Shown here piece by piece: positions 30,804-56,829 of a stretch of 64,000 nucleotides of DNA. The translations under genes were made by a program, and so were the position numbers. The DNA comes from an uncultured Erysipelotrichaceae bacterium (GTDB lineage Bacteria; Bacillota_I; Bacilli_A; RF39; UBA660). The notes below the pieces were generated by a model. It was not told where the DNA came from and ran no database searches. It saw nothing but the letters and a program-made list of their open reading frames with translations. How positions within the stretch are numbered: the first letter of the stretch is position 1; each line of letters starts with the position of its first letter. The DNA is taken from the NCBI GenBank assembly GCA_902785135.1, contig CACZXL010000001.1, positions 2,109 through 66,108 of the forward strand. Reading direction: 5' to 3'.

Positions 30804-30819
30804 TGTTTCACGTGAAACA
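30804..30819. promoter_or_regulatory. parS site 1
   Basis: TGTTTCACGTGAAACA, perfect match to the Firmicutes parS consensus. Confidence 0.92.
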
Positions 30820-30848
30820 TACGTAATTTTATTTAATGATAATAAAAA

Positions 30849-30864
30849 TATTCCCCGGGAAATA
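30849..30864. promoter_or_regulatory. Noc-binding site (NBS) 1, one mismatch
   Basis: TATTCCCCGGGAAATA versus NBS TATTTCCCGGGAAATA. Confidence 0.75.
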
Positions 30865-30913
30865 TTTTTTACATAATTTTTAAATAATATTTTTAAAGTT
30901 AATAAAAAAACAA

Positions 30914-30929
30914 TGTTTCACGTGAAACA
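30914..30929. promoter_or_regulatory. parS site 2 (within a 30-bp perfect palindrome, 30907-30936)
   Basis: AAAACAA-TGTTTCACGTGAAACA-TTGTTTT. Confidence 0.92.
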
Positions 30930-30991
30930 TTGTTTTATTTTTATTAGTTTTAATATTGTATATAACTTTTTATAATAATTTTATTAAAAAA

Positions 30992-31007
30992 TATTTCCCG
31001 GGAAATA
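30992..31007. promoter_or_regulatory. Noc-binding site 2
   Basis: TATTTCCCGGGAAATA perfect. Confidence 0.85.
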
Positions 31008-31016
31008 TTTTTTTAA

Positions 31017-31032
31017 TGTTTCACGTGAAACA
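31017..31032. promoter_or_regulatory. parS site 3, abutting the tadA stop codon
   Basis: TGTTTCACGTGAAACA perfect. Confidence 0.92.
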
Positions 31033-31437
31033 TTAGCGTTTATTTTTAAAAAAATTACTTAATTTATTAGAAAATAAATTATTTTCTATATATTTATATT
31101 CAGGAGTTGATTCAGTTTTATAATTATTTTGTTTAGAATAAAAATATACATTTTTAATTCTTGATTTTTTTATTATACTTTTACACATTTCACATGGTTC
31201 TAAAGTAATATATAATTCACAATTATCTAATCTCCAATTATTTAGTTTTTTATTTGCTTTTTTTATAACATTTATCTCTGCATGATTTAATACTGAATTA
31301 TTTTTTTCTACTTTATTATAAGATTTTGCGATTATTTTATTATTATATACAATTAATGCCGCAACTGGTACTTCATTATGTTTTATAGCTTTATCCAATA
31401 GTTTATTTAATTCTTTAATAATAATATCTTGATTCAT
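31033..31437 (-). CDS. tadA: tRNA adenosine(34) deaminase
   Basis: EVPVAALIV, HAEINVI, LYITLEPCEMC; start ATG 31437 with SD AAGGAG. Confidence 0.9.
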   Translation of the reverse strand: MNQDIIIKELNKLLDKAIKHNEVPVAALIVYNNKIIAKSYNKVEKNNSVLNHAEINVIKKANKKLNNWRLDNCELYITLEPCEMCKSIIKKSRIKNVYFYSKQNNYKTESTPEYKYIENNLFSNKLSNFFKNKR

Positions 31438-31459
31438 AAAATCTCCTTGCATAAAAAAA

Positions 31460-31530
31460 GCACACACGAAAATTAAATGTTAAGGCTGCTATATTTCTAT
31501 CCTGACCTGGTTCCAAGTTTTTCGTTGTGC
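31460..31530 (-). ncRNA. ffs: Signal recognition particle RNA, minimal 4.5S-like form (about 71 nt)
   Basis: Minus strand GCACAACGAAAAACTTGGAACCAGGTCAGGATAGAAATATAGCAGCCTTAACATTTAATTTTCGTGTGTGC: helix-8 motif CAGG..GAAA..AGCAG, paired 5'/3' ends, then a T-run. Confidence 0.88.
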
Positions 31531-31536
31531 ATAAAT

Positions 31537-31565
31537 AATATACTATTTATTTAATAATAAGTCAA
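31537..31565 (-). promoter_or_regulatory. SigA promoter of ffs-tadA
   Basis: TTGACT-N17-TATATT, 6 nt upstream of the predicted SRP RNA 5' end. Confidence 0.7.
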
Positions 31566-31575
31566 ATTAAAACAA

Positions 31576-31591
31576 TGTTTCACGTGAAACA
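31576..31591. promoter_or_regulatory. parS site 4
   Basis: TGTTTCACGTGAAACA perfect; flanks identical to parS 2. Confidence 0.92.
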
Positions 31592-31623
31592 TTGTTAAAA
31601 ATATGTATTATTATTTAAAAAAA

Positions 31624-31639
31624 TATTTCCCGGGAAATA
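31624..31639. promoter_or_regulatory. Noc-binding site 3
   Basis: TATTTCCCGGGAAATA perfect. Confidence 0.85.
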
Positions 31640-31682
31640 TTTTTACTTTTATTATTAATAATTAATTGTAAAAAAAAGTATA

Positions 31683-31698
31683 TGTTTCACGTGAAACA
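31683..31698. promoter_or_regulatory. parS site 5 (extended palindrome, possibly also the gyrA terminator)
   Basis: AAGTATA-TGTTTCACGTGAAACA-TATACTT, 9 nt past the gyrA stop, T-run on the minus strand. Confidence 0.92.
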
Positions 31699-37368: not shown

Positions 37369-37821
37369 TTATTCAGCAGCATTTATTCTTTTTCTTAAAA
37401 CTGATTCTAATTTAGTAGCTCTTAATACTTGATTATCAAAAGATCCAAATGAAATATTTAATTTAATTTTCTTATTATTATCAAATAATAACTCAGTTTT
37501 TCCATTTTTACTTTCATAATCTTTAATATTATTTAGACCTATCCATACACAATCTAATAATCTTGGTGAAGAAGTAGGAAAATATATTAAATTCTTACTT
37601 TCTTCTATAATTATAGGAGCTTTATGAGATATGCCTATTAGTTTTTTAGTTCCTTCATGTCTTCCATTATATGAACTTCCAAAATATTCACAACTATCTT
37701 CTATTATTTCCATAACAGGTTTATTAACTATAAAAATATTATTCCTTTCTATTATTTTTGTTTCATTTTCTGATATTGGTATAAGAGCTAAAGTATCACA
37801 GTTTACTTCATAAGAAATCAT
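37369..37821 (-). CDS. comK: Competence transcription factor ComK family
   Basis: YEVN..TLA, SCEYFGSSYNGRHEGT..ISHKAPII..IYFPTSSP..CVWI, closely matching Bacillus ComK; start ATG 37821 (SD GGGGG). Confidence 0.88.
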   Translation of the reverse strand: MISYEVNCDTLALIPISENETKIIERNNIFIVNKPVMEIIEDSCEYFGSSYNGRHEGTKKLIGISHKAPIIIEESKNLIYFPTSSPRLLDCVWIGLNNIKDYESKNGKTELLFDNNKKIKLNISFGSFDNQVLRATKLESVLRKRINAAE

Positions 37822-37924
37822 AATTATTCCCCCTAACATTAATTGATTTCTATATATTATTTTCTCCAAAAAGAAAACAATACCCCCTATTTTTCACAAA
37901 ATAATTAAAAAAAATGTAGATTTT

Positions 37925-39254: not shown

Positions 39255-40628
39255 CTATTCTATTTTTTCTTTAATTTCTTCAATTATTTTTTCTAATTGT
39301 TTATTATTTTTTATCTCATTAGCTATTCTATCACAAGAACTCATAACTGTCGAATGATCTCTTCCACCAAAAGCCATACCTATTCTTGGAAATGATTCAT
39401 CAGTTAATTGTCTACTTAAATAAATAGCTATATGTCTTGGAAAAGCTATTGTAGCAACTCTTTTCTTTGATTTTAAATCATCTACAGATATATTATAATA
39501 TTCTGCCACAGCTTTTTTTATTTTTTCTATACTATTTGTATTATCATTAGTTTTTCCACCATGAATTGTACCTTTTAAAGCTTCTATTGCTAGATCTAAA
39601 GTAATTCTTTCTTGATAGAATATTGTAGAATAAGCACAAACTCTTGTTAATGCCCCTTCTATATTTCTAACATCTGATTGACAAGTATTAGCAATATAAT
39701 CTATTACTTCATCATCTATTTCAGATGCAAAATTCATATTTGCTATCTTATATCTTATTATTTTTTTTCTTAATTCGTTATCTGGTGGAAAAATATTAAC
39801 TTTTAATCCCCAATTAAATCTTGTTCTTAATCTATCTTCTAGATTCTTTAAATCATCTGGTGAATTATCACTAGATATAATTATTTGTTTTTTATCTTCA
39901 AACAATGTATTAAATGTGTGGAAAAATTCAGTTTGTGTTTTAGGTGCTGTTCCTAAAAATTGAATATCATCTATTATTAATACATCTATATTTCTATATT
40001 TTTCTTTAAAAATATCTTTTTTATCATAATTTGTACCTTCATTATTTCTATTATTAATACCTGTATAATCACTAATAAATGTTTCAGAAGTTACATATAA
40101 TACTCTTTTATTTGTATTTTGAATAATATAATTACCAATAGCATGCATTAAGTGAGTTTTACCTAATCCACTATTTCCATATATAAATAAAGGATTATAC
40201 ATTTTACCTGGATTTTCCGCCACAGCTAAAGCAGTAGCTTGAGCAAATCTATTACTCTCTCCTACCATAAAATTTTCAAAAGTATAGTCTGGATTAAGAT
40301 GTGCTTTTTTATAACTATTATAAGGAACACCTGATTCTTCTTCTTCTGTACTTAAAATTTCCACGGGTTTATCATTACTTATTTCATTTTCTAAAACAAA
40401 TTTTAATATAAAATTAGTACCAGTAATAGAATTTAAAATATCTTCAATTATATCTTTATAACTTTCAGCTAAATGTTTTTTATGTGCAATTGTTGGTACA
40501 ACTATTACTGCTTCCTCTCCTAAAGAAAATAAATAGGTATCTTTGAACCATGTTTCATAACCAAGAGACGTAACTCGTTTTTTTATCATACTAAGAAATT
40601 TATTCCATATCATATCTTTATTATCCAA
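39255..40628 (-). CDS. dnaA: Chromosomal replication initiator DnaA
   Basis: YTFENFMVGESN, YNPLFIYGNSGLGKTHL, LIIDDIQF, RLRTRF, GGRDHSTV; likely TTG start at 40628 after GGGGAGGTG. Confidence 0.98.
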   Translation of the reverse strand: MDNKDMIWNKFLSMIKKRVTSLGYETWFKDTYLFSLGEEAVIVVPTIAHKKHLAESYKDIIEDILNSITGTNFILKFVLENEISNDKPVEILSTEEEESGVPYNSYKKAHLNPDYTFENFMVGESNRFAQATALAVAENPGKMYNPLFIYGNSGLGKTHLMHAIGNYIIQNTNKRVLYVTSETFISDYTGINNRNNEGTNYDKKDIFKEKYRNIDVLIIDDIQFLGTAPKTQTEFFHTFNTLFEDKKQIIISSDNSPDDLKNLEDRLRTRFNWGLKVNIFPPDNELRKKIIRYKIANMNFASEIDDEVIDYIANTCQSDVRNIEGALTRVCAYSTIFYQERITLDLAIEALKGTIHGGKTNDNTNSIEKIKKAVAEYYNISVDDLKSKKRVATIAFPRHIAIYLSRQLTDESFPRIGMAFGGRDHSTVMSSCDRIANEIKNNKQLEKIIEEIKEKIE

Positions 40629-40694
40629 GTTAACACCTCCCCCAAGGTTCATACCTATTTTTTTGTTAATTTAATTATACCTCTTTTTCTTTAT

Positions 40695-43154: not shown

Positions 43155-44492
43155 ATGTATGATACAATAGCAGCTATTTCAACTGCGCAAGGTGTAGGAG
43201 CTATCTCAATTGTTAGAATTAGTGGGGATGAAGCATTAGAAATAGTAAATAAAATATTTGATCAAGATATTTATAAATATGAAAGTAATACTATAAATTA
43301 TGGTCATATTATAGATAAAGATAAAATAGTTGATGAAGTTCTTGTATCAGTATTTTTAGCGCCTAAAACATATACTAAAGAAAACATTATAGAAATTAAT
43401 ACTCATGGGGGTATATCAGTTACTAATAAAATATTAGAATTATTATTAGAAAATGGAGCTAGATTAGCTGAACCAGGTGAATTTACTAAAAGAGCGTTCT
43501 TAAATGGTAGAATAGATTTAATTGAAGCTGAATCTGTAATGGATTTAATAGATGCAAAAACTGAAAGTGCTAGAAAAATGGCTATTAATGGTGTTGATGG
43601 TAGATTATCTAGTAAAATTAATAAATTAAGAGATAAAGCTCTAGATATTATTTCTAATATAGAAGTTAATATTGATTATCCAGAATATGAAGATATTGAA
43701 GTAATGACTATTGAAGATATAAGAAACTATTCTAAAGAATTAAATAAAGATATAGATGATTTATTAAAAACATCTGAAAGTGGAAAGATTATAAAAGAAG
43801 GTATTAATACAGTTATTTTAGGAAGACCTAATGTTGGAAAAAGTTCTATTTTAAATAGATTATTAGATGAAGAAAAAGCTATTGTTACTGATATTCCAGG
43901 TACTACAAGAGATATTGTTGAAGGAAGTATTAGATTAAATGGTGTATTAATAAATTTTTTAGATACTGCTGGAGTAAGAGAAACAACAAACACTGTGGAA
44001 AAAATTGGAGTAGAAAAAAGTTTATCATTACTTGATAAAGCTGATTTAGTATTATTAGTTTTAAATAATAATGAAAAATTAACTAAAGAAGATAAAGAAT
44101 TATTAGAAATAACTAAAGATAAGAAAAGAATTATTGTTGTTAATAAAATAGATTTAGAATCTAATATAGATTTAGATATGGATTATGTTAAAGTAAGTGC
44201 AGAAAAAAATAATATAGATGAATTATTAGATAAAATAAATGAATTATTTAAGTTAGATGAAATAAATGATGGAGATATGACATATATATCTAATGCTAGA
44301 GAAATATCTTTATTAAAGAAGGCAAAACAATCTTCAAATAATCTAATAAAGTCTTTAGATGAAGGTATACCTATAGATATGCTTGAAATAGATATTAAGA
44401 ATATAATAGATTATTTAGGTGAAGTAACAGGGGAAAGTTATGATAATGAATTAATAGACAAATTATTTAGTAGATTTTGTCTAGGAAAGTAG
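43155..44492 (+). CDS. mnmE: tRNA modification GTPase
   Basis: DTIAAIST, GEFTKRAFLNGR, GRPNVGKSS, GTTRD, DTAG, FCLGK. Confidence 0.97.
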   Translation: MYDTIAAISTAQGVGAISIVRISGDEALEIVNKIFDQDIYKYESNTINYGHIIDKDKIVDEVLVSVFLAPKTYTKENIIEINTHGGISVTNKILELLLENGARLAEPGEFTKRAFLNGRIDLIEAESVMDLIDAKTESARKMAINGVDGRLSSKINKLRDKALDIISNIEVNIDYPEYEDIEVMTIEDIRNYSKELNKDIDDLLKTSESGKIIKEGINTVILGRPNVGKSSILNRLLDEEKAIVTDIPGTTRDIVEGSIRLNGVLINFLDTAGVRETTNTVEKIGVEKSLSLLDKADLVLLVLNNNEKLTKEDKELLEITKDKKRIIVVNKIDLESNIDLDMDYVKVSAEKNNIDELLDKINELFKLDEINDGDMTYISNAREISLLKKAKQSSNNLIKSLDEGIPIDMLEIDIKNIIDYLGEVTGESYDNELIDKLFSRFCLGK

Positions 44493-44497
44493 GATAT

Positions 44498-45421
44498 ATG
44501 AAAAATATAGGAATTATAGGTAGTGGTGCTTTTGGATGTGCTCTAGCTCATACTTTTAGCAAAAATAATAATATTATTATGTGGTCTTTTACTGAAGAAG
44601 AATATAATAGTATTAATAATAATCATTGTTGTTTATCAGTACCTAGTATTAAATTAAATAATATTAAAGTATCTTTAAACCTTGAAGAGGTAATAAATAG
44701 TAGTGATATCATTGTTTTGGTAACACCTTCAAATACAATTAGAAAAATGTGCCAAGAAATAAAAAAATACTATAACAATCAAGATATCTTATTAGCGTCA
44801 AAAGGAATGGAAAATGATAAATTATTATCAGATGTAATTAAGGAAGAAATAGGAGTAAATTCTTCAATTATTATGGGTCCATCTTTTGCTGAAGAAATAG
44901 GAGAGGATTTACCAACTTTTGTTGAATTATCAGGTAACAGAGATTTAGTAGAAATATTAAATAACGATATATTTAAGGTTTCTTATAATAATGATTTAAT
45001 AGGATTACAAGTAGGTGGAGCATTAAAGAATGTAGTAACTGTTGCTTCAGGAATAGTAGAAGGTTTAGGTTATAAAGTTAATACTTCTTCATATATTATT
45101 ACTGAAGGATTAAAAGAAATTAAAGAAATAGGTATAAAATTAGGTGCTAAAGAATCTACTTTTTATGGTTTATCTGGTTTAGGTGATTTATATGGTACAT
45201 CATTAAGTAATAAAAGTAGAAATAAAAGAGCAGGTATATTAATCGGTCAAGGTAAAGATTTAGAATATATTTATAGTGAAGTAGGAACAACAATAGAAGG
45301 TTTAGATACAGTTAAAGATGCAAAATATTTAATAGATAAATATAGTTTAGATTGTCCATTAATCAATAATTTATATGAAATTATATATAATAACAAAGAA
45401 AAAAGTAGTATTATAGGGTAA
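44498..45421 (+). CDS. gpsA: NAD(P)H-dependent glycerol-3-phosphate dehydrogenase
   Basis: GSGAFG, SKGME, GPSFAEE, GGALKNV, GLSGLGDL..SRN. Confidence 0.9.
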   Translation: MKNIGIIGSGAFGCALAHTFSKNNNIIMWSFTEEEYNSINNNHCCLSVPSIKLNNIKVSLNLEEVINSSDIIVLVTPSNTIRKMCQEIKKYYNNQDILLASKGMENDKLLSDVIKEEIGVNSSIIMGPSFAEEIGEDLPTFVELSGNRDLVEILNNDIFKVSYNNDLIGLQVGGALKNVVTVASGIVEGLGYKVNTSSYIITEGLKEIKEIGIKLGAKESTFYGLSGLGDLYGTSLSNKSRNKRAGILIGQGKDLEYIYSEVGTTIEGLDTVKDAKYLIDKYSLDCPLINNLYEIIYNNKEKSSIIG

Positions 45422-45479
45422 TACTATTTTTCTTTTTAAAATTATTGTGTTAAAATACTATTTAAATAGAGGTGATATT

Positions 45480-46190
45480 ATGTCTAAAATAGAATTAGTA
45501 AACGCCTACAAAAGAACTACAGAAAATGATATTAGAAAGGATAATTATTTTTTTGAAAGATTTTTATCATTAAATAAAAGAAATCTTATAAATAGATCTT
45601 TAAATTTTAATGAAGAAACTAATGAATATGTATATGAAGGATATGGAGAACTATTGATTTTACCAGATGGTTATTTTCCAGTAACAAGTGATTACGTAGA
45701 TAATGTATATATTTCGGATTCTTCTGATGTTTTATATAAATTAGTATATTATCCTGGTTTAGAAAAAGAAAATGAAGAGGAAATGGATACAACATCAGTA
45801 ATTACTAAAATTTCTAAACAAAAAATATACTTAGAAAGAGAATATATTTTAGAAAGATCATCATTTTTAACTGAAGAAAAATATGGAGAACATAATCCAA
45901 ATCAGTTATTATGTGCTTTAGAAAATATTGAGAGTGGAAATTATACTTCATTTACTAATAAGGAACATGCAAGAGAAGATTTAAGACAAGTTCCACCAGA
46001 AGAAATTAATCAATTAACAAGACAAATATTATATAAATATGATTTAATTAATAAAAATTCATATATAAATGATTCTGATGTTAGAAAATTATTTGTAACT
46101 TATATTAAAGAAAAGGTAAGAAAAGAAAAAATGGATAGGGTTAAAAATAATGTTTTATCTTTAACTGATTTATTAACAAATATGGATTAA
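45480..46190 (+). CDS. Hypothetical protein
   Basis: ORF of about 236 aa with SD GAGGTG and a downstream hairpin; no family recognised. Confidence 0.75.
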   Translation: MSKIELVNAYKRTTENDIRKDNYFFERFLSLNKRNLINRSLNFNEETNEYVYEGYGELLILPDGYFPVTSDYVDNVYISDSSDVLYKLVYYPGLEKENEEEMDTTSVITKISKQKIYLEREYILERSSFLTEEKYGEHNPNQLLCALENIESGNYTSFTNKEHAREDLRQVPPEEINQLTRQILYKYDLINKNSYINDSDVRKLFVTYIKEKVRKEKMDRVKNNVLSLTDLLTNMD

Positions 46191-48797: not shown

Positions 48798-48856
48798 AAA
48801 ATGGATTTTTATTATATTATAATATATGTATAAGAATAAAAAGTGAGGGGATAAAT

Positions 48857-49837
48857 ATGAATAATATGGAAAAAGAAATTATTGAAGTATCTTTAGATGA
48901 TATTATTCCTAACCGTTTTCAACCTAGATTGTCTTTTGATGAAGATGCATTAAATGAATTAGCTAAATCTATAAGACAACATGGTATTATTCAACCATTA
49001 GTACTTAGAAAGGTTGGAAATAAATATGAAATAATTGCGGGTGAAAGAAGATATAAAGCTTCTTATATCGCAGGTCTTACAAAAGTTCCAGCAATTGTTA
49101 TTGATTTAAATGATAATGAATCTGCTGAAGTAGCAATTGTAGAAAATATTCAAAGAAAAAATTTATCTCCAATAGAAGAAGCAAAGTCTTATAAAAAATT
49201 ATTAGATAGAGGTTATTTAACACAAGATGAATTAGCTTCTAGAATGGGTAAAACTCAAGGAGCTATATCTAATAAACTTAGATTATTAAATTTATCTACA
49301 GAAGTGCAAGATGCTTTATTAAATAATCAAATTAGTGAAAGACATGCAAGAAGTTTATTAAAAATAGAAAATGAAGATGAACAAATAGAGATACTAAATA
49401 GAATTATTACAGGAAGATTAAATGTTAGAGATACAGACAATCTTATAAATTCATATATCAATAATGAAGAATATATTCCGGTTGCACCTCATAAAGGTTT
49501 TGGTTTAGGTAAAGGTTCTTCAAGTAGTAGTTCAATTGATTTTAATACATTTTTTGATACAAATAATGAGGATAATACACCATTAACAATTGAAGACAAA
49601 GTATATCCTTCTATAGAAGATAAAACATATCTAGAAATAGAGGATAAAGTATATCCTGCAATAGAAACAGAAGAAACACTATTATTAGAGGATGAATCTA
49701 CTGAATCTAAAAAAGATGTTCTTCAAAGAAAAATAAAGAATTTTATTGAAGAATTAAAAGCTGAAGGATATGATGCAACTTATGATAATTATGAATTTGA
49801 TAGAATATTTGAATTTATAATAAAAGTACAAAAATAA
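48857..49837 (+). CDS. noc: ParB-family CTPase of the Noc (nucleoid occlusion) type
   Basis: PNRFQPR, IIAGERRYKA, ENIQR; HTH region GKTQGAISNKLRLL..ISERHARSLL has Noc-type Q/K/R residues (Spo0J has SRPHIANH..MGHGR); follows rsmG. Confidence 0.8.
   Translation: MNNMEKEIIEVSLDDIIPNRFQPRLSFDEDALNELAKSIRQHGIIQPLVLRKVGNKYEIIAGERRYKASYIAGLTKVPAIVIDLNDNESAEVAIVENIQRKNLSPIEEAKSYKKLLDRGYLTQDELASRMGKTQGAISNKLRLLNLSTEVQDALLNNQISERHARSLLKIENEDEQIEILNRIITGRLNVRDTDNLINSYINNEEYIPVAPHKGFGLGKGSSSSSSIDFNTFFDTNNEDNTPLTIEDKVYPSIEDKTYLEIEDKVYPAIETEETLLLEDESTESKKDVLQRKIKNFIEELKAEGYDATYDNYEFDRIFEFIIKVQK
49589..49672 (+). repeat. 24-nt tandem repeat (IEDKxYxx, three copies plus a partial) in the Noc C-terminal linker
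   Basis: IEDKVYPS-IEDKTYLE-IEDKVYPA-IETE. Confidence 0.8.
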
Positions 49838-49859
49838 AATACCAATTTATTGGTATTTT

Positions 49860-51782
49860 TTATTTATCTTTTTTTCTTGGTTCTGTTCCTTTTAAATAAT
49901 ATATAAATTTTTTTCTTTTTGAATTGTTAGTAGCTAATTTTCCATTGAGAGGGTTTACTAATACAGCAGTAACGTTTTTAGGCTTATCATACCATTTAGT
50001 TTCTTTATCTCTTAAAAATGATTCCATAGTATCAATCCATATATTTCTTGCTATTTTAGAGTCATCTTTTGTTAGATTATCGTTATTATCATATCCAACC
50101 CATGTACCTAGAGTATATTCTTTATTATATCCAACTATTAATGAATCAGTGTTAGTACTTCCTGTTTTAATTGAATATTTTTTTGTTATTTTAGGTCTTA
50201 TACTTAGACAAGTTGGTTCACTATAATCTATTAGATTATTATCATAACAATTTGTTAATAGTTCTGTTAAAATATATGAATAATTATTATCTAATACTCT
50301 TTTTTTATTTATTTTATGTTCATATAGAGTGTTATTTTTATTATCTTTAATTGCTCTTATAAGATATGTATCTTTATATACCCCTTCACTTGCTAATGTA
50401 GAATATCCATTAGTTAATTTAATTATGTTCATTTCACTTGTTCCTAACGGTAAAGACACATTATTTTTTACATTTTTTATTCCAACTTTATTAAGTGTAT
50501 CAACTAACACATTATCTCCTAGAAAAAGGTTTGTTTTAAGGGCATATATATTATCAGAGTACGCAAGTGCTATTATCATAGGAATCTTTTTATTTGCGTA
50601 TATATCACCATAATTACTAGGTTTATAATAATCATTATCTAGTTTAAAAGAAGTATTTTCAGATAAGAATAAAGAAGATGGAGTAAAACCATTTTCTAAA
50701 GCTGCATAATATAAAAATGGTTTTATAGTAGAACCTATTTGTCTTTTAGAATTTATTGCTCTATTATATTGACTCTTTTCGTAATCTTTTCCACCTATTA
50801 ACGCAATTATCCTACCAGTATTATTTTCTATCATTACACTAGAAGTCTGAATATTATTATTTTCATCTATATTATTTTGGATAGATTTTTCTAATGATTC
50901 TTGAGCCTCTATATCTAAATTTGTATATATTTTAATACTATTATTATCTAAATAATCATTAGGTAATACTTTTATATCATCTAATTCCTTCATAACCGCA
51001 TCTTTATAATACATTAATGTTGTTAAATTTAATGTTTCTTTTTTTCCATAGTAAGTTAATTTTTCATTAAAAGCTTTATTCATTTCTTTTTTTGATATAT
51101 ATCCCTCTTTATACATATTATTTAATACTTGTTTTTGCCTTTTTTTCGCACTTTTCTCATTGTTAATAGGTGAATATTCCTGTGGATATTTAGGTATACC
51201 CGCAAGCATAGTAGATTCCGCTAAAGAAAGATCTTTAGATGATTTATTAAAATAATAGTGAGAAGCATTTTCTATTCCAAAAACACCATTTCCATAATTA
51301 ATAGTATTAAGATATCCTTCTAGTATTTCATCTTTAGAGTAATTTATTTCCATTTTAAAAGCCAAATATGCTTCTTTAATTTTTCTTTTATAAGTTCTAT
51401 CAAAAGTTAAATATAAGTTTCTAGCGTATTGTTGTGTTATAGTAGATGCTCCTTCTTCAATAGAACCAGATTTTAAATTAACAAAAAATGATTTTATTAT
51501 TCTTATATAATCAAAACCATTATGTTTATAAAATCTTTTATCTTCAGTAGATATTGTTGCATTTATAAGATTTTTATTAATATGAGAAAGAGGTATCCAT
51601 TCTTTAGATCCATTTCCTCTAAAAAATTCTTTATTGTTTTTATCATAAAGAATTATATTATTTGTTTTCTTTAAATCTAGCTTTGGAGTTAATTTAATAA
51701 AGGTATACATACATGTTACAAAAAAAGATATTAAGAATACCAAAATAACAAATATTTTTAACATAATTTTTCTTTTTTTCAT
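49860..51782 (-). CDS. Class A penicillin-binding protein (PbpG/YwhE-like by synteny)
   Basis: TG motifs EDKRFYKH, GASTITQQYAR, YLNTINYG; TP motifs GSTIKP, YSDN, KTGS. Confidence 0.9.
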   Translation of the reverse strand: MKKRKIMLKIFVILVFLISFFVTCMYTFIKLTPKLDLKKTNNIILYDKNNKEFFRGNGSKEWIPLSHINKNLINATISTEDKRFYKHNGFDYIRIIKSFFVNLKSGSIEEGASTITQQYARNLYLTFDRTYKRKIKEAYLAFKMEINYSKDEILEGYLNTINYGNGVFGIENASHYYFNKSSKDLSLAESTMLAGIPKYPQEYSPINNEKSAKKRQKQVLNNMYKEGYISKKEMNKAFNEKLTYYGKKETLNLTTLMYYKDAVMKELDDIKVLPNDYLDNNSIKIYTNLDIEAQESLEKSIQNNIDENNNIQTSSVMIENNTGRIIALIGGKDYEKSQYNRAINSKRQIGSTIKPFLYYAALENGFTPSSLFLSENTSFKLDNDYYKPSNYGDIYANKKIPMIIALAYSDNIYALKTNLFLGDNVLVDTLNKVGIKNVKNNVSLPLGTSEMNIIKLTNGYSTLASEGVYKDTYLIRAIKDNKNNTLYEHKINKKRVLDNNYSYILTELLTNCYDNNLIDYSEPTCLSIRPKITKKYSIKTGSTNTDSLIVGYNKEYTLGTWVGYDNNDNLTKDDSKIARNIWIDTMESFLRDKETKWYDKPKNVTAVLVNPLNGKLATNNSKRKKFIYYLKGTEPRKKDK

Positions 51783-51879: not shown

Positions 51880-52257
51880 GTGTTTTTTATTAAACATATA
51901 TTAGTTGATTTATATATAAAAAATAATGATGAAGAATTATCTTTTACTAATATTGATTGTATTTATAAAAATAATAAATTAATTTTTAGTATAAATGAAG
52001 ATAATTATGATATTACTAAAAAAGAAAATATTATTTTCCATAAAGAGAATAAAGAATCTATTATTGATTTTGAGTTTAAAGATAATGTTTTAACAAAAGG
52101 TACATATTTTATTAAAGATTTAAACTTTTATATGGATGCGAATATTAAGACAATTAAGTATATAGTAGAAAATAATATTATAGATATAGAATATAAGCTA
52201 TGGCTTCAAGATGAAGAAATAGGTGAGTTTATTTTAAAAATAAAAGTAAAGGAGTAG
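51880..52257 (+). CDS. Small beta-rich protein, YwiB/DUF1934-like
   Basis: Position immediately upstream of argS as for Bacillus ywiB; weak sequence resemblance; start uncertain. Confidence 0.5.
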   Translation: MFFIKHILVDLYIKNNDEELSFTNIDCIYKNNKLIFSINEDNYDITKKENIIFHKENKESIIDFEFKDNVLTKGTYFIKDLNFYMDANIKTIKYIVENNIIDIEYKLWLQDEEIGEFILKIKVKE

Positions 52258-54000: not shown

Positions 54001-54444
54001 ATGAGTATAAGAAAAAAGACTTTAGAAGAATTAGAATTAATGAGTTATACAGATATAGCTTATGAAATAATTAAGGAAGATAAAAAGAAAAAATATAATA
54101 CACCAAATCTTTTTAAAGAAGTATGTAAATTATTAGAATTATCTGATGAAGAATTTGCTGATAAAATAGCAGATTTCTTTACAGCGTTAACAACTGATGG
54201 AAGATTTATTCTAATTGATTCTACAACATGGGATTTAAAAGAAAATCACGTTGTTAAAGTTGTAGTTGATGATGGTGATGAAGAAGATATAGAAACAGAT
54301 GAAGAATCAGTATCAGAAGAAGATTCTGAAGATACTGAAGATATAGAAGATGATTATTCTGATGAAGCAGTAGATTCTTCAAGTGAAGATGAAGAAGATA
54401 TGCAAGATTTAACAATAGTTGATGAAGAAGATATAGAAGAATAG
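54001..54444 (+). CDS. rpoE: RNA polymerase delta subunit
   Basis: MSYTDIAYEII..FFTALTTDGRF..WDLK plus an acidic tail. Confidence 0.9.
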   Translation: MSIRKKTLEELELMSYTDIAYEIIKEDKKKKYNTPNLFKEVCKLLELSDEEFADKIADFFTALTTDGRFILIDSTTWDLKENHVVKVVVDDGDEEDIETDEESVSEEDSEDTEDIEDDYSDEAVDSSSEDEEDMQDLTIVDEEDIEE

Positions 54445-56295: not shown

Positions 56296-56829
56296 ATGAA
56301 AAAAATTCTATTGTTATTATCTATAATTAGTTTTATATATATAGGATTAAATTATAAAGAAGATGATAATATTATTCCAGATGAAGCAATTAGATTTAGA
56401 GTAGTCGCTAATTCTAATACAGTTTATGATCAAAATATTAAACTTCAAGTAAGAAATACTGTTCAAAATGAAATATTTAAATTAATAAAAGACTCTAAAT
56501 CGATTGATGATACAAGAAAAATACTAAAGGAACACCAAAAAGAGTTATATGATGTAATCAATAATAAACTTAAAGAACTAGATTATAATAAAGGTTTTGA
56601 AATAAAATATGGTTTTAATCATTTTCCAAAGAAAAAATATAAAGGAGTTACTTATAAAGAAGGTAATTATGAATCACTAGTTATTACTTTAGGATCAGGT
56701 AATGGTGATAACTTTTGGTGTGTATTATTTCCACCATTATGTTTATTAGAAGCAGATGATAATTCATCATCTAATATTGAATATAAATTCTTTGTTAAAG
56801 ATTTAATTGATAAATATTTAAAAAAATAG
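56296..56829 (+). CDS. spoIIR: Stage II sporulation protein R
   Basis: AIRFRVVANSN..DQ..K..VRN, FP.K.Y...Y..G.YESL.I.LG.G.G.NFWCVLFPPLC; follows prmC. Confidence 0.93.
   Translation: MKKILLLLSIISFIYIGLNYKEDDNIIPDEAIRFRVVANSNTVYDQNIKLQVRNTVQNEIFKLIKDSKSIDDTRKILKEHQKELYDVINNKLKELDYNKGFEIKYGFNHFPKKKYKGVTYKEGNYESLVITLGSGNGDNFWCVLFPPLCLLEADDNSSSNIEYKFFVKDLIDKYLKK

What the first reader, a model, noticed from the sequence alone, without database searches (positions are those of the whole stretch)
48857..49837. Noc-type protein without the N-terminal membrane helix, with a relocated FGLG motif and no soj/spo0J neighbours
Seen: Noc-type specificity residues (GKTQGAISNKLRLL..ERHAR) and an intact GERR CTPase motif, but the protein begins directly at the ParB domain (MNNMEKEIIEVSLDD). 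After the HTH domain there is an extended linker containing HKGFGLGKG..IDFNTFFD and IEDKxY repeats. The gene is followed by a convergent PBP gene rather than by soj-spo0J. Known: B. subtilis Noc needs its N-terminal amphipathic peptide (MKHSFSRFFGLG) for membrane binding and nucleoid occlusion. Inference: either a membrane-free Noc acting like ParB at the adjacent NBS array, or one whose membrane-targeting motif has moved to the C-terminal linker.
Basis: partly seen in the sequence, partly recalled or inferred. Interest (0 to 1): 0.65.

Follow-up and report, generated by a model that had tools for sequence, protein, structure and literature searches.

The report
Noc-type protein lacking its membrane helix
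This gene encodes a Noc-type DNA clamp from an uncultured cattle or sheep gut bacterium that naturally lacks the membrane-binding helix thought to define Noc, belongs to a large undescribed subfamily, and has its binding sites interleaved with chromosome-partition (parS) sites next to the replication origin.

Summary
ORF 48857-49837 (+, 326 aa) is a ParB-fold protein that sits closer to Noc than to Spo0J. It has the CTP-binding motifs, the NBS-specificity residues Q134/K140/R162 (tetrad QKNR) and a Noc-type C-terminal domain. It starts about 20-25 residues later than canonical Noc, so helices alpha1 and alpha2 are missing, and no upstream start is possible.

This is not a local oddity. All 150 best 50%-identity cluster representatives and all 83 genomic relatives share the short N-terminus. 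They also carry an expanded, disordered, acidic linker between the DNA-binding and C-terminal domains.

The "relocated FGLG" reading is not supported as stated. FGLG occurs in only 19 of the 120 closest homologues. The conserved element is FxxΦF (IDFNTFF). Across the family, a [GN][KR]FFN[FL] motif occurs in 63 of 147 linkers.

No soj or spo0J lies within about 80 kb. Sister lineages keep soj-spo0J beside the rpmH operon.

The cognate NBS sites (two perfect, one with one mismatch) are 17-18 kb upstream, not adjacent, and are interleaved with five perfect parS sites between gyrA, ffs-tadA and dnaX. At least 115 metagenomic contigs carry the same composite array at the same syntenic position.

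Most likely this is an origin-centred Noc variant that acts through linker motifs. How it signals is inferred, not shown.

The parts
48845..48850 (+). Ribosome-binding site GAGGGG, 6 nt before the ATG
   Evidence: Read from the sequence.
48857..49837 (+). Noc-type ParB-family gene, 326 aa plus stop
   Evidence: The exact protein is found on three public contigs.
48875..49153 (+). ParB N-terminal CTP-binding domain (residues 7-99). GERR is at 49040-49051, with FQPR and ENIQR boxes present.
   Evidence: Pfam PF02195, 1.1e-33. AF2 pLDDT 70-83. Foldseek top hit is Noc 7NFU.
49157..49453 (+). HTH DNA-binding domain (residues 101-199). Specificity residues are Q134 (49256-49258), K140 (49274-49276), N145 (49289-49291) and R162 (49340-49342).
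   Evidence: Pfam PF17762, 1.6e-33. The tetrad is QKNR, against Noc QKKR and ParB RTAG (PMC7383237). TM-score 0.90-0.92 to the Noc DBD-NBS complex 6Y93.
49469..49708 (+). Expanded disordered acidic linker (residues 205-284, net charge about -13)
   Evidence: AF2 pLDDT about 40 with no secondary structure. Charge and hydrophobic moment. The canonical Noc model skips this stretch.
49496..49516 (+). GFGLGKG (residues 214-220), a basic-glycine motif restricted to the nearest relatives
   Evidence: Present in 19-21 of the 120 closest homologues. Together with IDFNTF it aligns with the N-terminus of sister-clade Spo0J (p about 2e-4).
49535..49558 (+). IDFNTFFD (residues 227-234), the conserved FxxΦF linker motif
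   Evidence: F229 and F233 are invariant in alignment A1. FxxΦF occurs in 112 of the 120 closest homologues.
49587..49666 (+). Tandem IEDKxYP repeats (24-nt period, 3.3 copies)
   Evidence: TRF. Copy number is 0-5 in close homologues.
49709..49834 (+). Noc-type C-terminal (dimerisation) domain, residues 285-326: one helix and two strands
   Evidence: AF2 pLDDT 68-88. The family profile matches the B. subtilis Noc C-terminus at hhalign 95%, E 2.9e-8, and the Spo0J C-terminal domain at 0.1%. It adds 12 bits to the TIGR04285 score.
49839..49862 (.). AT-rich hairpin ATACCAA-TTTA-TTGGTAT followed by a T run, between the convergent noc and PBP genes. Possibly a bidirectional terminator.
   Evidence: Read by eye. 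The consensus scan did not call it because it has only 2 G-C pairs.
30804..31032 (.). Composite array 1, between dnaX and tadA: parS 30804-30819, NBS (1 mismatch) 30849-30864, parS 30914-30929, NBS 30992-31007, parS 31017-31032
   Evidence: Flanking genes.
31576..31698 (.). Composite array 2, between the SRP RNA gene (ffs) and gyrA: parS 31576-31591, NBS 31624-31639, parS 31683-31698
   Evidence: The same arrangement is found in at least 115 metagenomic loci.

Best explanation
The gene encodes a Noc-lineage, CTP-dependent ParB-type DNA clamp that recognises the standard 16-bp Noc-binding site (NBS). It belongs to a large, uncharacterised subfamily found in uncultured low-GC gut Bacilli. In this subfamily the N-terminal membrane-targeting helix alpha1 and helix alpha2 are absent, which makes the protein a natural equivalent of the laboratory N-terminal 26-residue deletion of Noc. 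The linker between the DNA-binding and C-terminal domains has grown into an acidic disordered region that carries short phenylalanine-rich motifs.

In this lineage the NBS sites are concentrated in a conserved array, interleaved with parS, in the gyrA / ffs-tadA / dnaX intergenic regions 8-10 kb from dnaA. The protein therefore most likely loads beside Spo0J on the origin-proximal centromere and forms a second clamp-based nucleoprotein complex there.

Its output is most likely binding of a protein partner through the acidic linker motifs (FxxΦF, IEDKxYP repeats, EETLLLE), not insertion of an amphipathic helix into the membrane.

Shown: identity, domain make-up, missing helix, family breadth, cognate sites and their conserved arrangement. 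Inferred: CTP clamp behaviour (from conserved motifs and the Noc/ParB literature), co-loading with Spo0J, and partner binding by the linker.
For: Noc rather than ParB.
- TIGR04285 scores 280 bits over model positions 1-198, and 289 bits end to end once the linker is removed. A sister-clade Spo0J scores 235.
- The best solved relatives are Noc 7NFU/7NG0 (3e-61), ahead of Spo0J (3e-49). Foldseek gives the same order, and the DNA-binding domain superposes on the Noc-NBS complex at TM 0.9.
- The tetrad is QKNR. Q173 and R201 are the specificity switches, and one lysine at position 179 or 184 is enough (PMC7383237).
- The C-terminal domain profile matches the Noc C-terminus (95%, E 2.9e-8) and not Spo0J.

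Missing helix.
- Query residue 6 aligns with Noc residue 26.
- There is no upstream start.
- The N-terminus MNNMEKEI is invariant in alignment A1.
- 147 of the 150 best 50%-identity representatives carry the IIPNRFQPR landmark, and 143 of those begin 12-17 residues before it, against 37 in B. subtilis Noc. The four with 18-31 residues (two look like miscalled upstream starts) are still short of 37.

Cognate sites.
- Two perfect NBS and one with a single mismatch, plus five perfect parS, lie in the window. Shuffles expect 0.23 parS-like matches even allowing three mismatches.
- Five perfect NBS and five more with one mismatch occur in 1.38 Mb of relatives' loci.
- At least 120 metagenomic loci hold a perfect parS within 5-35 bp of a perfect NBS. 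Of these, 115 carry recognisable flanking genes of the window's gyrA-tadA-dnaX(-recR) origin neighbourhood.

Linker.
- AF2 predicts it disordered.
- Net charge is -13, and the hydrophobic moment of the motif is 0.34-0.38.
- FxxΦF is conserved in 112 of the 120 closest homologues.
Against: No biochemical evidence exists for any member of this subfamily. Whether the genome encodes Spo0J and Soj could not be determined; only about 80 kb around the origin was visible. No partner is identified.

In 63 of 147 family linkers the enriched motif, [GN][KR]FFN[FL], looks like a membrane-targeting helix. Direct membrane binding may therefore be the ancestral output of the linker and could persist here.

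The protein scores below the curated Noc cut-off (315 bits). Only 3 NBS are seen in 64 kb, so the genome-wide NBS distribution is unknown and could still be dispersed as in Bacillus.
Confidence: 0.5

Rival explanations
1. Permuted Noc. The membrane-targeting amphipathic peptide has moved from the N-terminus into the linker, so the protein still tethers NBS-bound DNA directly to the membrane and acts as a conventional nucleoid occlusion factor.
For: The family-wide linker motif x[GN][KR]FFN[FLMI][LF]E[ED]EE occurs in 63 of 147 representatives, against about 1 in shuffles. Its median hydrophobic moment is 0.50, close to 0.52 for the B. subtilis Noc segment SFSRFFGLG. It resembles Noc SRFFGLGEKE, and from memory the SepF and MinD anchors. 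The Noc N-terminus is a transplantable module (PMC4331003).
Against: The window protein and its 120 closest homologues carry DF(N/D)(T/S)(F/L)F(D/N/E) with no basic residue. The local charge is -2 to -3, the whole linker is -13, and the moment is 0.34-0.38. AF2 predicts no helix there. FGLG itself is not conserved, and its match to the Noc N-terminus is not significant (p=0.08).
Confidence: 0.2
2. Soj/ParA-type partner. The linker carries an internal copy of the ParB N-terminal ParA-interaction peptide, so this Noc variant talks to a ParA-family ATPase (Soj or MinD) from the NBS array.
For: Linker residues 216-242 (LGKGSSSSSSIDFNTFFDTNNEDNTP) align with residues 10-38 of sister-clade Spo0J (LGKGLEELFSSEVLDFDTFESNIMDSTP). 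The Smith-Waterman score is 50, against 24 ± 5 in 5000 shuffles, p about 2e-4. BLASTP reports a secondary hit at E=0.006. The Spo0J N-terminus is the Soj-interacting region (PMC4331003).
Against: The comparison was made post hoc between short, low-complexity segments. GLGKG occurs in only 12 of the 120 closest homologues. No parA or minD gene is seen within about 80 kb. The Spo0J sequences compared come from one sister clade only.
Confidence: 0.15
3. Passive centromere component. The protein has no effector function. It simply loads at NBS between parS sites and shapes or limits Spo0J clamp loading and sliding, and the linker is only a spacer.
For: parS and NBS alternate tightly: 343 of 456 adjacent site pairs are one of each kind. 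Gaps peak at 10-13 and 19-22 bp. Linker length (about 60-540 aa) and repeat content vary widely.
Against: Short motifs inside the linker are conserved far beyond chance, which argues for a specific interaction rather than a spacer.
Confidence: 0.1
4. It is really the chromosomal ParB/Spo0J of this organism and binds the parS sites. Alternatively, the short N-terminus is a start-codon or assembly artefact.
For: It is the only ParB-family gene in the window, and five perfect parS sites are present.
Against: Q134 and R162 occupy the positions where parS binders need R and G. Sister genomes encode both this protein and a separate Spo0J with the tetrad RTNG. The C-terminal domain is Noc-type. An in-frame stop excludes an upstream start. 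The identical ORF occurs on independent assemblies, and the short N-terminus is conserved across all homologue sets examined: 120 close homologues, 150 cluster representatives and 83 genomic relatives.
Confidence: 0.03

Closest known systems
Noc (nucleoid occlusion protein) of Bacillus subtilis, Geobacillus thermoleovorans and Staphylococcus aureus (TIGR04285; PDB 7NFU, 7NG0, 7OL9, 6Y93)
   Same: ParB N-terminal CTP-binding domain with GERR. HTH domain with Q173, K179 and R201. An identical 16-bp NBS in the genome. A Noc-type C-terminal domain. The gene directly follows rsmG (gidB) in the origin gene cluster. About 43-50% identity over residues 6-219.
   Different: It lacks the membrane-targeting helix alpha1, helix alpha2 and the connecting loop (about 20-25 residues). 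Position 184 is N, not K. An 80-residue acidic disordered linker with FxxΦF and tandem IEDKxYP units replaces the short basic linker (KPKPRRKAFSRD). It scores 280 bits, below the 315 cut-off. It is not followed by soj-spo0J. [quoted passage not shown]
Chromosomal ParB/Spo0J (PDB 1VZ0, 4UMK, 6SDK)
   Same: Same fold, the same CTP-binding boxes, and loading at origin-proximal palindromic sites. The window linker carries a peptide resembling the Spo0J N-terminus of a sister clade.
   Different: It has the NBS-type and not the parS-type specificity residues. It has no N-terminal LG(K/R)GL peptide. Its C-terminal domain is unrelated to the sister-clade Spo0J C-terminal domain. It has no adjacent parA.
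The engineered N-terminal 26-residue deletion of Noc (NocNΔ26, PMC8429893), and the N-terminally truncated Noc variants of PMC4331003
   Same: The N-terminal boundary is essentially the same: the protein starts just before beta1 of the N-terminal domain.
   Different: Those are laboratory truncations that lose membrane binding and nucleoid occlusion. This is a natural, conserved and widespread form with a new linker, so it presumably keeps a selected function.

Membership tests
Noc (nucleoid occlusion protein) | ParB-type N-terminal CTP-binding domain with box II GERR | tested here: met
   PF02195 at 1.1e-33; GERR at residues 62-65; FQPR and ENIQR boxes present.
Noc (nucleoid occlusion protein) | NBS-specificity residues Q173, K179/K184 and R201 (Caulobacter numbering) | tested here: met
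   Q134, K140, N145 and R162 give QKNR. One lysine at 179 or 184 suffices (PMC7383237). The tetrad is QKNR in 119 of 120 close homologues and 112 of 150 representatives.
Noc (nucleoid occlusion protein) | Cognate NBS (TATTTCCCGGGAAATA) present in the genome | tested here: met
   Two perfect sites and one with a single mismatch in the window. Perfect sites also occur in relatives' loci and in at least 120 metagenomic loci.
Noc (nucleoid occlusion protein) | Noc-type C-terminal dimerisation domain | tested here: met
   hhalign 95%, E 2.9e-8 to the B. subtilis Noc C-terminus. The domain adds 12 bits in the linker-deleted construct.
Noc (nucleoid occlusion protein) | Highly conserved N-terminal amphipathic membrane-targeting helix (aa 1-10/15) plus helix alpha2 | tested here: not met
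   The protein starts at the equivalent of about residue 21 of Geobacillus Noc. An in-frame stop lies upstream. The same short N-terminus is seen across the whole subfamily.
Noc (nucleoid occlusion protein) | Score at or above the curated TIGR04285 cut-off (315 bits) | tested here: not met
   280.4 bits, or 289.2 with the linker removed.
Noc (nucleoid occlusion protein) | Gene order rsmG-noc-soj-spo0J in the ancestral Firmicutes origin cluster (PMC8136486) | tested here: inconclusive
   rsmG-noc is kept. soj-spo0J are absent from about 80 kb. Sister clades have soj-spo0J divergent from the rpmH operon.
Noc (nucleoid occlusion protein) | [quoted passage not shown] | not testable with these tools
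   Needs liposome co-sedimentation and in vivo assays.
Chromosomal ParB/Spo0J | parS-specificity residues (R173, G201) | tested here: not met
   Q and R at these positions. Sister-clade Spo0J has the tetrad RTNG.
Chromosomal ParB/Spo0J | N-terminal ParA-interacting LG(K/R)GL peptide and an adjacent parA gene | tested here: not met
   No such N-terminus and no parA in the window. A similar peptide lies inside the linker, and its meaning is unresolved.

The most novel reading that the evidence does not exclude
A widespread, undescribed two-paralogue centromere. Low-GC gut Bacilli keep alternating, possibly helically phased, parS and NBS sites beside oriC. On these sites Spo0J and a helix-less Noc would co-assemble. 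Noc would then have been repurposed from chromosome-wide, membrane-based nucleoid occlusion to an origin-specific role such as origin anchoring, segregation or control of replication initiation. Its effector peptide would have moved from the N-terminus into a disordered linker.
Probability: 0.3. Interest if true: 0.8.

Novelty: new variant of a known kind. Interest (0 to 1): 0.62.

Why it matters
[quoted passage not shown] The published view is that every Noc homologue examined has the N-terminal amphipathic helix (PMC4331003). A large natural clade keeps NBS specificity, the CTP-binding boxes and the Noc C-terminal domain but has dropped that helix. This shows that the Noc scaffold has at least one other output.

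The conserved interleaving of parS and NBS at one syntenic spot near oriC suggests that two ParB-family clamps share a single centromere. That makes questions about cross-talk, collision and cooperation between paralogous CTP clamps directly testable with defined DNA arrays.

The finding also bears on how uncultured, small-genome gut Bacilli organise chromosome segregation and division.

Tried and rejected
- Upstream or alternative start: excluded by an in-frame stop and the absence of start codons. The longer N-termini in a few database homologues (MDFYY...) come from an out-of-frame or miscalled upstream ATG.
- FGLG as the relocated Noc motif: rejected. It is poorly conserved, has a low hydrophobic moment, and its match to the Noc N-terminus gives p=0.08. 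HMMER places HKGFGLGK opposite the canonical Noc linker RKAFSRDK.
- FtsZ C-terminal-peptide mimicry (ΦDΦxTFΦ, DIPxF): not enriched over shuffles across the family, so dropped.
- C-terminal domain homology by pairwise BLASTP: nothing found, and the fragment alone gave no NCBIfam hit. Profile comparison and a linker-deleted construct did show it.
- Finding Spo0J and Soj of this organism: tblastn of the window and walking off both window ends on contigs of the same assembly found none. The whole genome could not be reached, and I ran no further search on it because the top hits would be the sister clade's own relatives.
- Names and taxonomy of family representatives: only 'MAG: ParB/RepB/Spo0J family partition protein [Bacilli bacterium]' was returned.
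- Expression: four bovine gut metatranscriptome runs give only short contig fragments over the conserved 5' two-thirds, a few of them exact. This is weak evidence at best.
- Promoter and terminator consensus scans: uninformative in this 24.5% GC sequence.
Full report
**What is there**

The ORF 48857..49837 (+) encodes 326 aa beginning MNNMEKEIIEVSLDD. GAGGGG lies 6 nt upstream of the ATG. In frame, a stop lies 25 codons upstream with no ATG, GTG or TTG in between, so no upstream start can add an N-terminal helix.

Pfam finds ParB_N at residues 7-99 and HTH_ParB at 101-199, each at about 1e-33.
- GERR at residues 62-65.
- GKTQGAISNKLRLLNL...ISERHAR at 131-165.
- HKGFGLGKG at 212-220.
- IDFNTFFD at 227-234.
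- Three IEDKxY units, seen as a 24-nt period with 3.3 copies at 49587-49666.

The next gene is a convergent class A PBP.

The window (24.5% GC) is the replication-origin region. On the minus strand lie dnaA (39255-40652), dnaN, a ComK-like gene, recF, gyrB, gyrA, ffs, tadA, dnaX and recR. On the plus strand lie rpmH, rnpA, yidC, jag, mnmE, gpsA, an unknown ORF, mnmG, rsmG and then this gene.

**Noc or Spo0J?**

Every test points to the Noc lineage.
- The NCBI Noc model TIGR04285 scores 280 bits over model positions 1-198. The ParB partition model scores 176.
- A Spo0J from a sister clade scores only 235 on the Noc model, and 204 on the ParB model.
- The best solved relatives are Geobacillus Noc 7NFU/7NG0 (3e-61) and B. 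subtilis Noc 7OL9 (1.5e-53), ahead of Thermus Spo0J (3e-49).
- The AlphaFold model gives the same order. Its DNA-binding domain superposes on the Noc-NBS complex 6Y93 at TM 0.90-0.92.

Jalal et al. 2020 (PMC7383237) showed that four positions set DNA specificity. ParB has RTAG and Noc has QKKR. Q173 reads base 1 and R201 reads base 6 of the NBS. A single lysine at position 179 or 184 is sufficient. Here the tetrad is Q134-K140-N145-R162, that is QKNR.

The last 42 residues fold as one helix and two strands. A profile of the family's C-termini matches the last 44 residues of B. subtilis Noc end to end (hhalign 95%, E 2.9e-8). It does not match the C-terminus of sister-clade Spo0J (0.1%). With the linker deleted in silico, the Noc model aligns over positions 1-255 of 255 and gains 12 bits, reaching 289. 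That is still below the curated cut-off of 315.

One caveat applies. It scores 373 bits full length on TIGR04285, so it is a genuine Noc sequence.

**The missing helix is real and family-wide**

HMMER aligns residue 6 here with residue 26 of Geobacillus Noc. Jalal et al. 2021 (PMC8429893) place three elements before the main N-terminal domain: the 10-residue membrane-targeting helix alpha1, the conserved helix alpha2 and an 8-residue loop. All three are absent here. The protein is a natural counterpart of their construct lacking the first 26 residues.

This short N-terminus is conserved at every level I examined.
- In 22 homologues of 74-86% identity, the N-terminus MNNMEKEI is invariant.
- All 83 Noc-type ORFs in 80 species-representative genome loci begin a few residues before IIPNRFQPR.
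- An exhaustive search of 1.84 billion cluster representatives returned 150 best hits at 259-460 bits, above the 210 bits of Geobacillus Noc. All are of this type.
- Of the 147 that carry the IIPNRFQPR landmark, 143 start 12-17 residues before it, against 37 in B. subtilis Noc. The four longer ones (18-31 residues, two of which look like miscalled upstream starts) are still short of 37.
- Their lengths run from 227 to 785 aa. The tetrad is QKNR in 112 and QKxR in nearly all.

The genomes are uncultured 'Bacilli', 'Tenericutes', 'Erysipelotrichaceae' and CAG-type MAGs. This organism occurs in bovine and sheep gut metagenomes. Public annotation calls these proteins generic ParB/RepB/Spo0J.

Adams et al. 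2015 (PMC4331003) reported an N-terminal amphipathic helix in all Noc homologues they examined. This subfamily is therefore an unreported exception.

**The linker and the 'relocated FGLG' idea**

Residues 205-284 are predicted disordered (pLDDT about 40) and carry a net charge of about -13.

FGLG is not a conserved feature.
- It occurs in 19 of the 120 closest homologues, and GLGKG in 12.
- It occurs in 3 of 83 genomic relatives.
- Its hydrophobic moment is low.
- Its similarity to the B. subtilis Noc N-terminus is not significant (p=0.08).
- HMMER places HKGFGLGK opposite the canonical linker RKAFSRDK.

What is conserved in this clade is different:
- FxxΦF (IDFNTFF), in 112 of 120 homologues, with F229 and F233 invariant.
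- A variable number (0-5) of IEDKxYP units.
- An EETLLLE stretch, in 89 of 120.

Across the wider family the linker ranges from about 60 to 540 residues and often holds its own tandem repeats. Two motifs stand out against shuffled controls.
- x[GN][KR]FFN[FLMI][LF]E[ED]EE occurs in 63 of 147 linkers, against about 1 expected.
- GFMD[VI]DKI occurs in 25 of 147, against 0 expected.

The KFF motif has a median hydrophobic moment of 0.50, like the B. subtilis Noc segment SFSRFFGLG at 0.52. It resembles Noc SRFFGLGEKE. A linker-borne membrane anchor is therefore a fair hypothesis for many family members.

The window protein's version, DFNTFFDTN, has no basic residue, a moment of 0.34-0.38 and an acidic setting. 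For this protein I favour binding to a protein partner.

One more lead concerns the Spo0J N-terminus. Linker residues 216-242 align with residues 10-38 of the Spo0J of a sister clade: LGKG...SS..(I/L)DF(N/D)TF. The score is 50, against 24 ± 5 in 5000 shuffles, p about 2e-4. BLASTP gives a secondary hit at E=0.006. That part of Spo0J is the Soj-interacting end. The comparison was post hoc and the segments are short, so I rank it as a rival and not a result. An FtsZ-tail-mimic idea was tested and dropped.

**soj and spo0J**

The window has no ParA Walker motif, no second ParB and no tblastn trace of either protein. The flanks read from contigs of the same assembly also lack them: rplJL-rpoBC-tilS on the right, secA and two XRE genes on the left.

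Six related genomes (L019, L024, L025, L030, L049, L073) do carry soj-spo0J, divergent from the rpmH operon and 7-8 kb upstream of their Noc-type gene. Their Spo0J has the tetrad RTNG. The two paralogues therefore coexist in the lineage.

The ancestral Firmicutes origin cluster includes parA, parB and noc (PMC8136486). Here parA and parB have left it. Whether they lie elsewhere in this genome could not be determined. Five perfect parS sites argue that a parS-binding Spo0J exists, but this is an inference.

**Where the protein would load**

The window holds two perfect NBS (30992, 31624) and one with a single mismatch (30849). It also holds five perfect parS (30804, 30914, 31017, 31576, 31683). 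These are the only sites within two mismatches in 64 kb. They alternate in the dnaX-tadA and ffs-gyrA intergenic regions, 8-10 kb from dnaA and 17-18 kb from this gene.

Relatives' loci contain five perfect NBS and five with one mismatch in 1.38 Mb. I estimate chance expectation for a perfect 16-mer there at well below one.

A scan of metagenome contigs for a perfect parS within 5-35 bp of a perfect NBS stopped at its 120-locus limit.
- The loci have a median GC of 0.26 and hold 340 parS and 286 NBS.
- 115 of the 120 carry recognisable flanking genes of the window's gyrA-tadA-dnaX(-recR) origin neighbourhood, with 37-97% protein identity to the window's genes.
- 343 of 456 adjacent site pairs are one parS and one NBS.
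- Gaps between unlike neighbours peak at 10-13 and 19-22 bp.

The composite array is therefore an old, conserved feature of this lineage. In B. subtilis and S. aureus, NBS are scattered over the origin-proximal half to two-thirds of the chromosome (PMC5540599; PMC7383237). My literature searches turned up no report of interleaved arrays.

**Interpretation**

Shown here:
- A Noc-lineage protein with intact CTP-binding boxes, NBS-type specificity and a Noc-type C-terminal domain.
- No membrane helix, and a new disordered linker.
- Membership of a large uncharacterised subfamily.
- Cognate sites clustered with parS near oriC in a conserved arrangement.

Inferred:
- It is a CTP-dependent sliding clamp that loads at these NBS next to Spo0J.
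- It signals through linker motifs, most likely to a protein partner.

The rivals are a linker-borne membrane anchor, a ParA-type partner reached through a Spo0J-like peptide, and a passive role that shapes the Spo0J complex.

By descent it is a Noc. By the functional definition it fails one defining feature, the N-terminal membrane-targeting helix, and it fails the curated score cut-off. I therefore file it as a new variant of a known kind and not as a canonical Noc.

Noticed in passing
window 30804-31698; loci L088-L207: Interleaved perfect parS and NBS sites flank ffs-tadA between gyrA and dnaX. At least 115 metagenomic contigs show them at the same syntenic position, some as regular tandem units (L129 with a 72-bp period, L164 with about 106 bp). 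Gaps between unlike neighbours peak at 10-13 and 19-22 bp, which suggests helical phasing. Shared ancestry of repeat units could also produce this pattern.
   Followed up: partly
L019, L024, L025, L030, L049, L073 (about 1-3 kb in each locus, minus strand): Sister genomes keep soj-spo0J divergent from the rpmH operon. Their Spo0J has N at specificity position 184, like the Noc-type paralogue. Its N-terminus, KKKALGKGLEELFSSEVLDFDTFE, carries an extra ΦDFxTF motif after the usual LGKGL peptide.
   Followed up: partly
proteins P0150, P0241 and P0223 (family representatives): Linkers of family members hold long lineage-specific tandem repeats, for example seven copies of PEFNFVNQEPE in P0150 and about ten 25-residue MDIPSVPTVDIPSF(D/E)xPxMPSEPQT units in P0241. 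The linker is a hotspot for repeat expansion.
   Followed up: no
window 37369-37869 (-): A ComK-family gene (PF06338, 1.4e-45) sits between dnaN and recF in the origin cluster.
   Followed up: no
window 44477-46190 (+): gpsA and a 247-aa ORF with no Pfam match are inserted between mnmE and mnmG. Further small ORFs with no family match lie at 51880-52257 and 54001-54444.
   Followed up: no
window 56296-56829 and flanks (L001, L083, L086): Sporulation genes (spoIIR, spoVG, yabP, spoIID, a sigma factor) occur in this very low-GC gut bacterium, which suggests an endospore former. An AgrB-like gene with a histidine-kinase-type ATPase gene lies at about 5080-7110.
   Followed up: no
L073 (CP091726.1, 'complete' MAG chromosome): Many conserved genes (spo0J, yidC, mnmE, mnmG, rsmG) are split by frameshifts. 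These look like assembly errors rather than pseudogenes, so gene content read from this record needs care.
   Followed up: no
L201 (GC 0.48) and L146 (GC 0.38): Two array-bearing metagenomic loci have much higher GC than the rest, and L201 keeps the tadA-dnaX context. The parS/NBS pairing may therefore extend beyond the low-GC clade.
   Followed up: no
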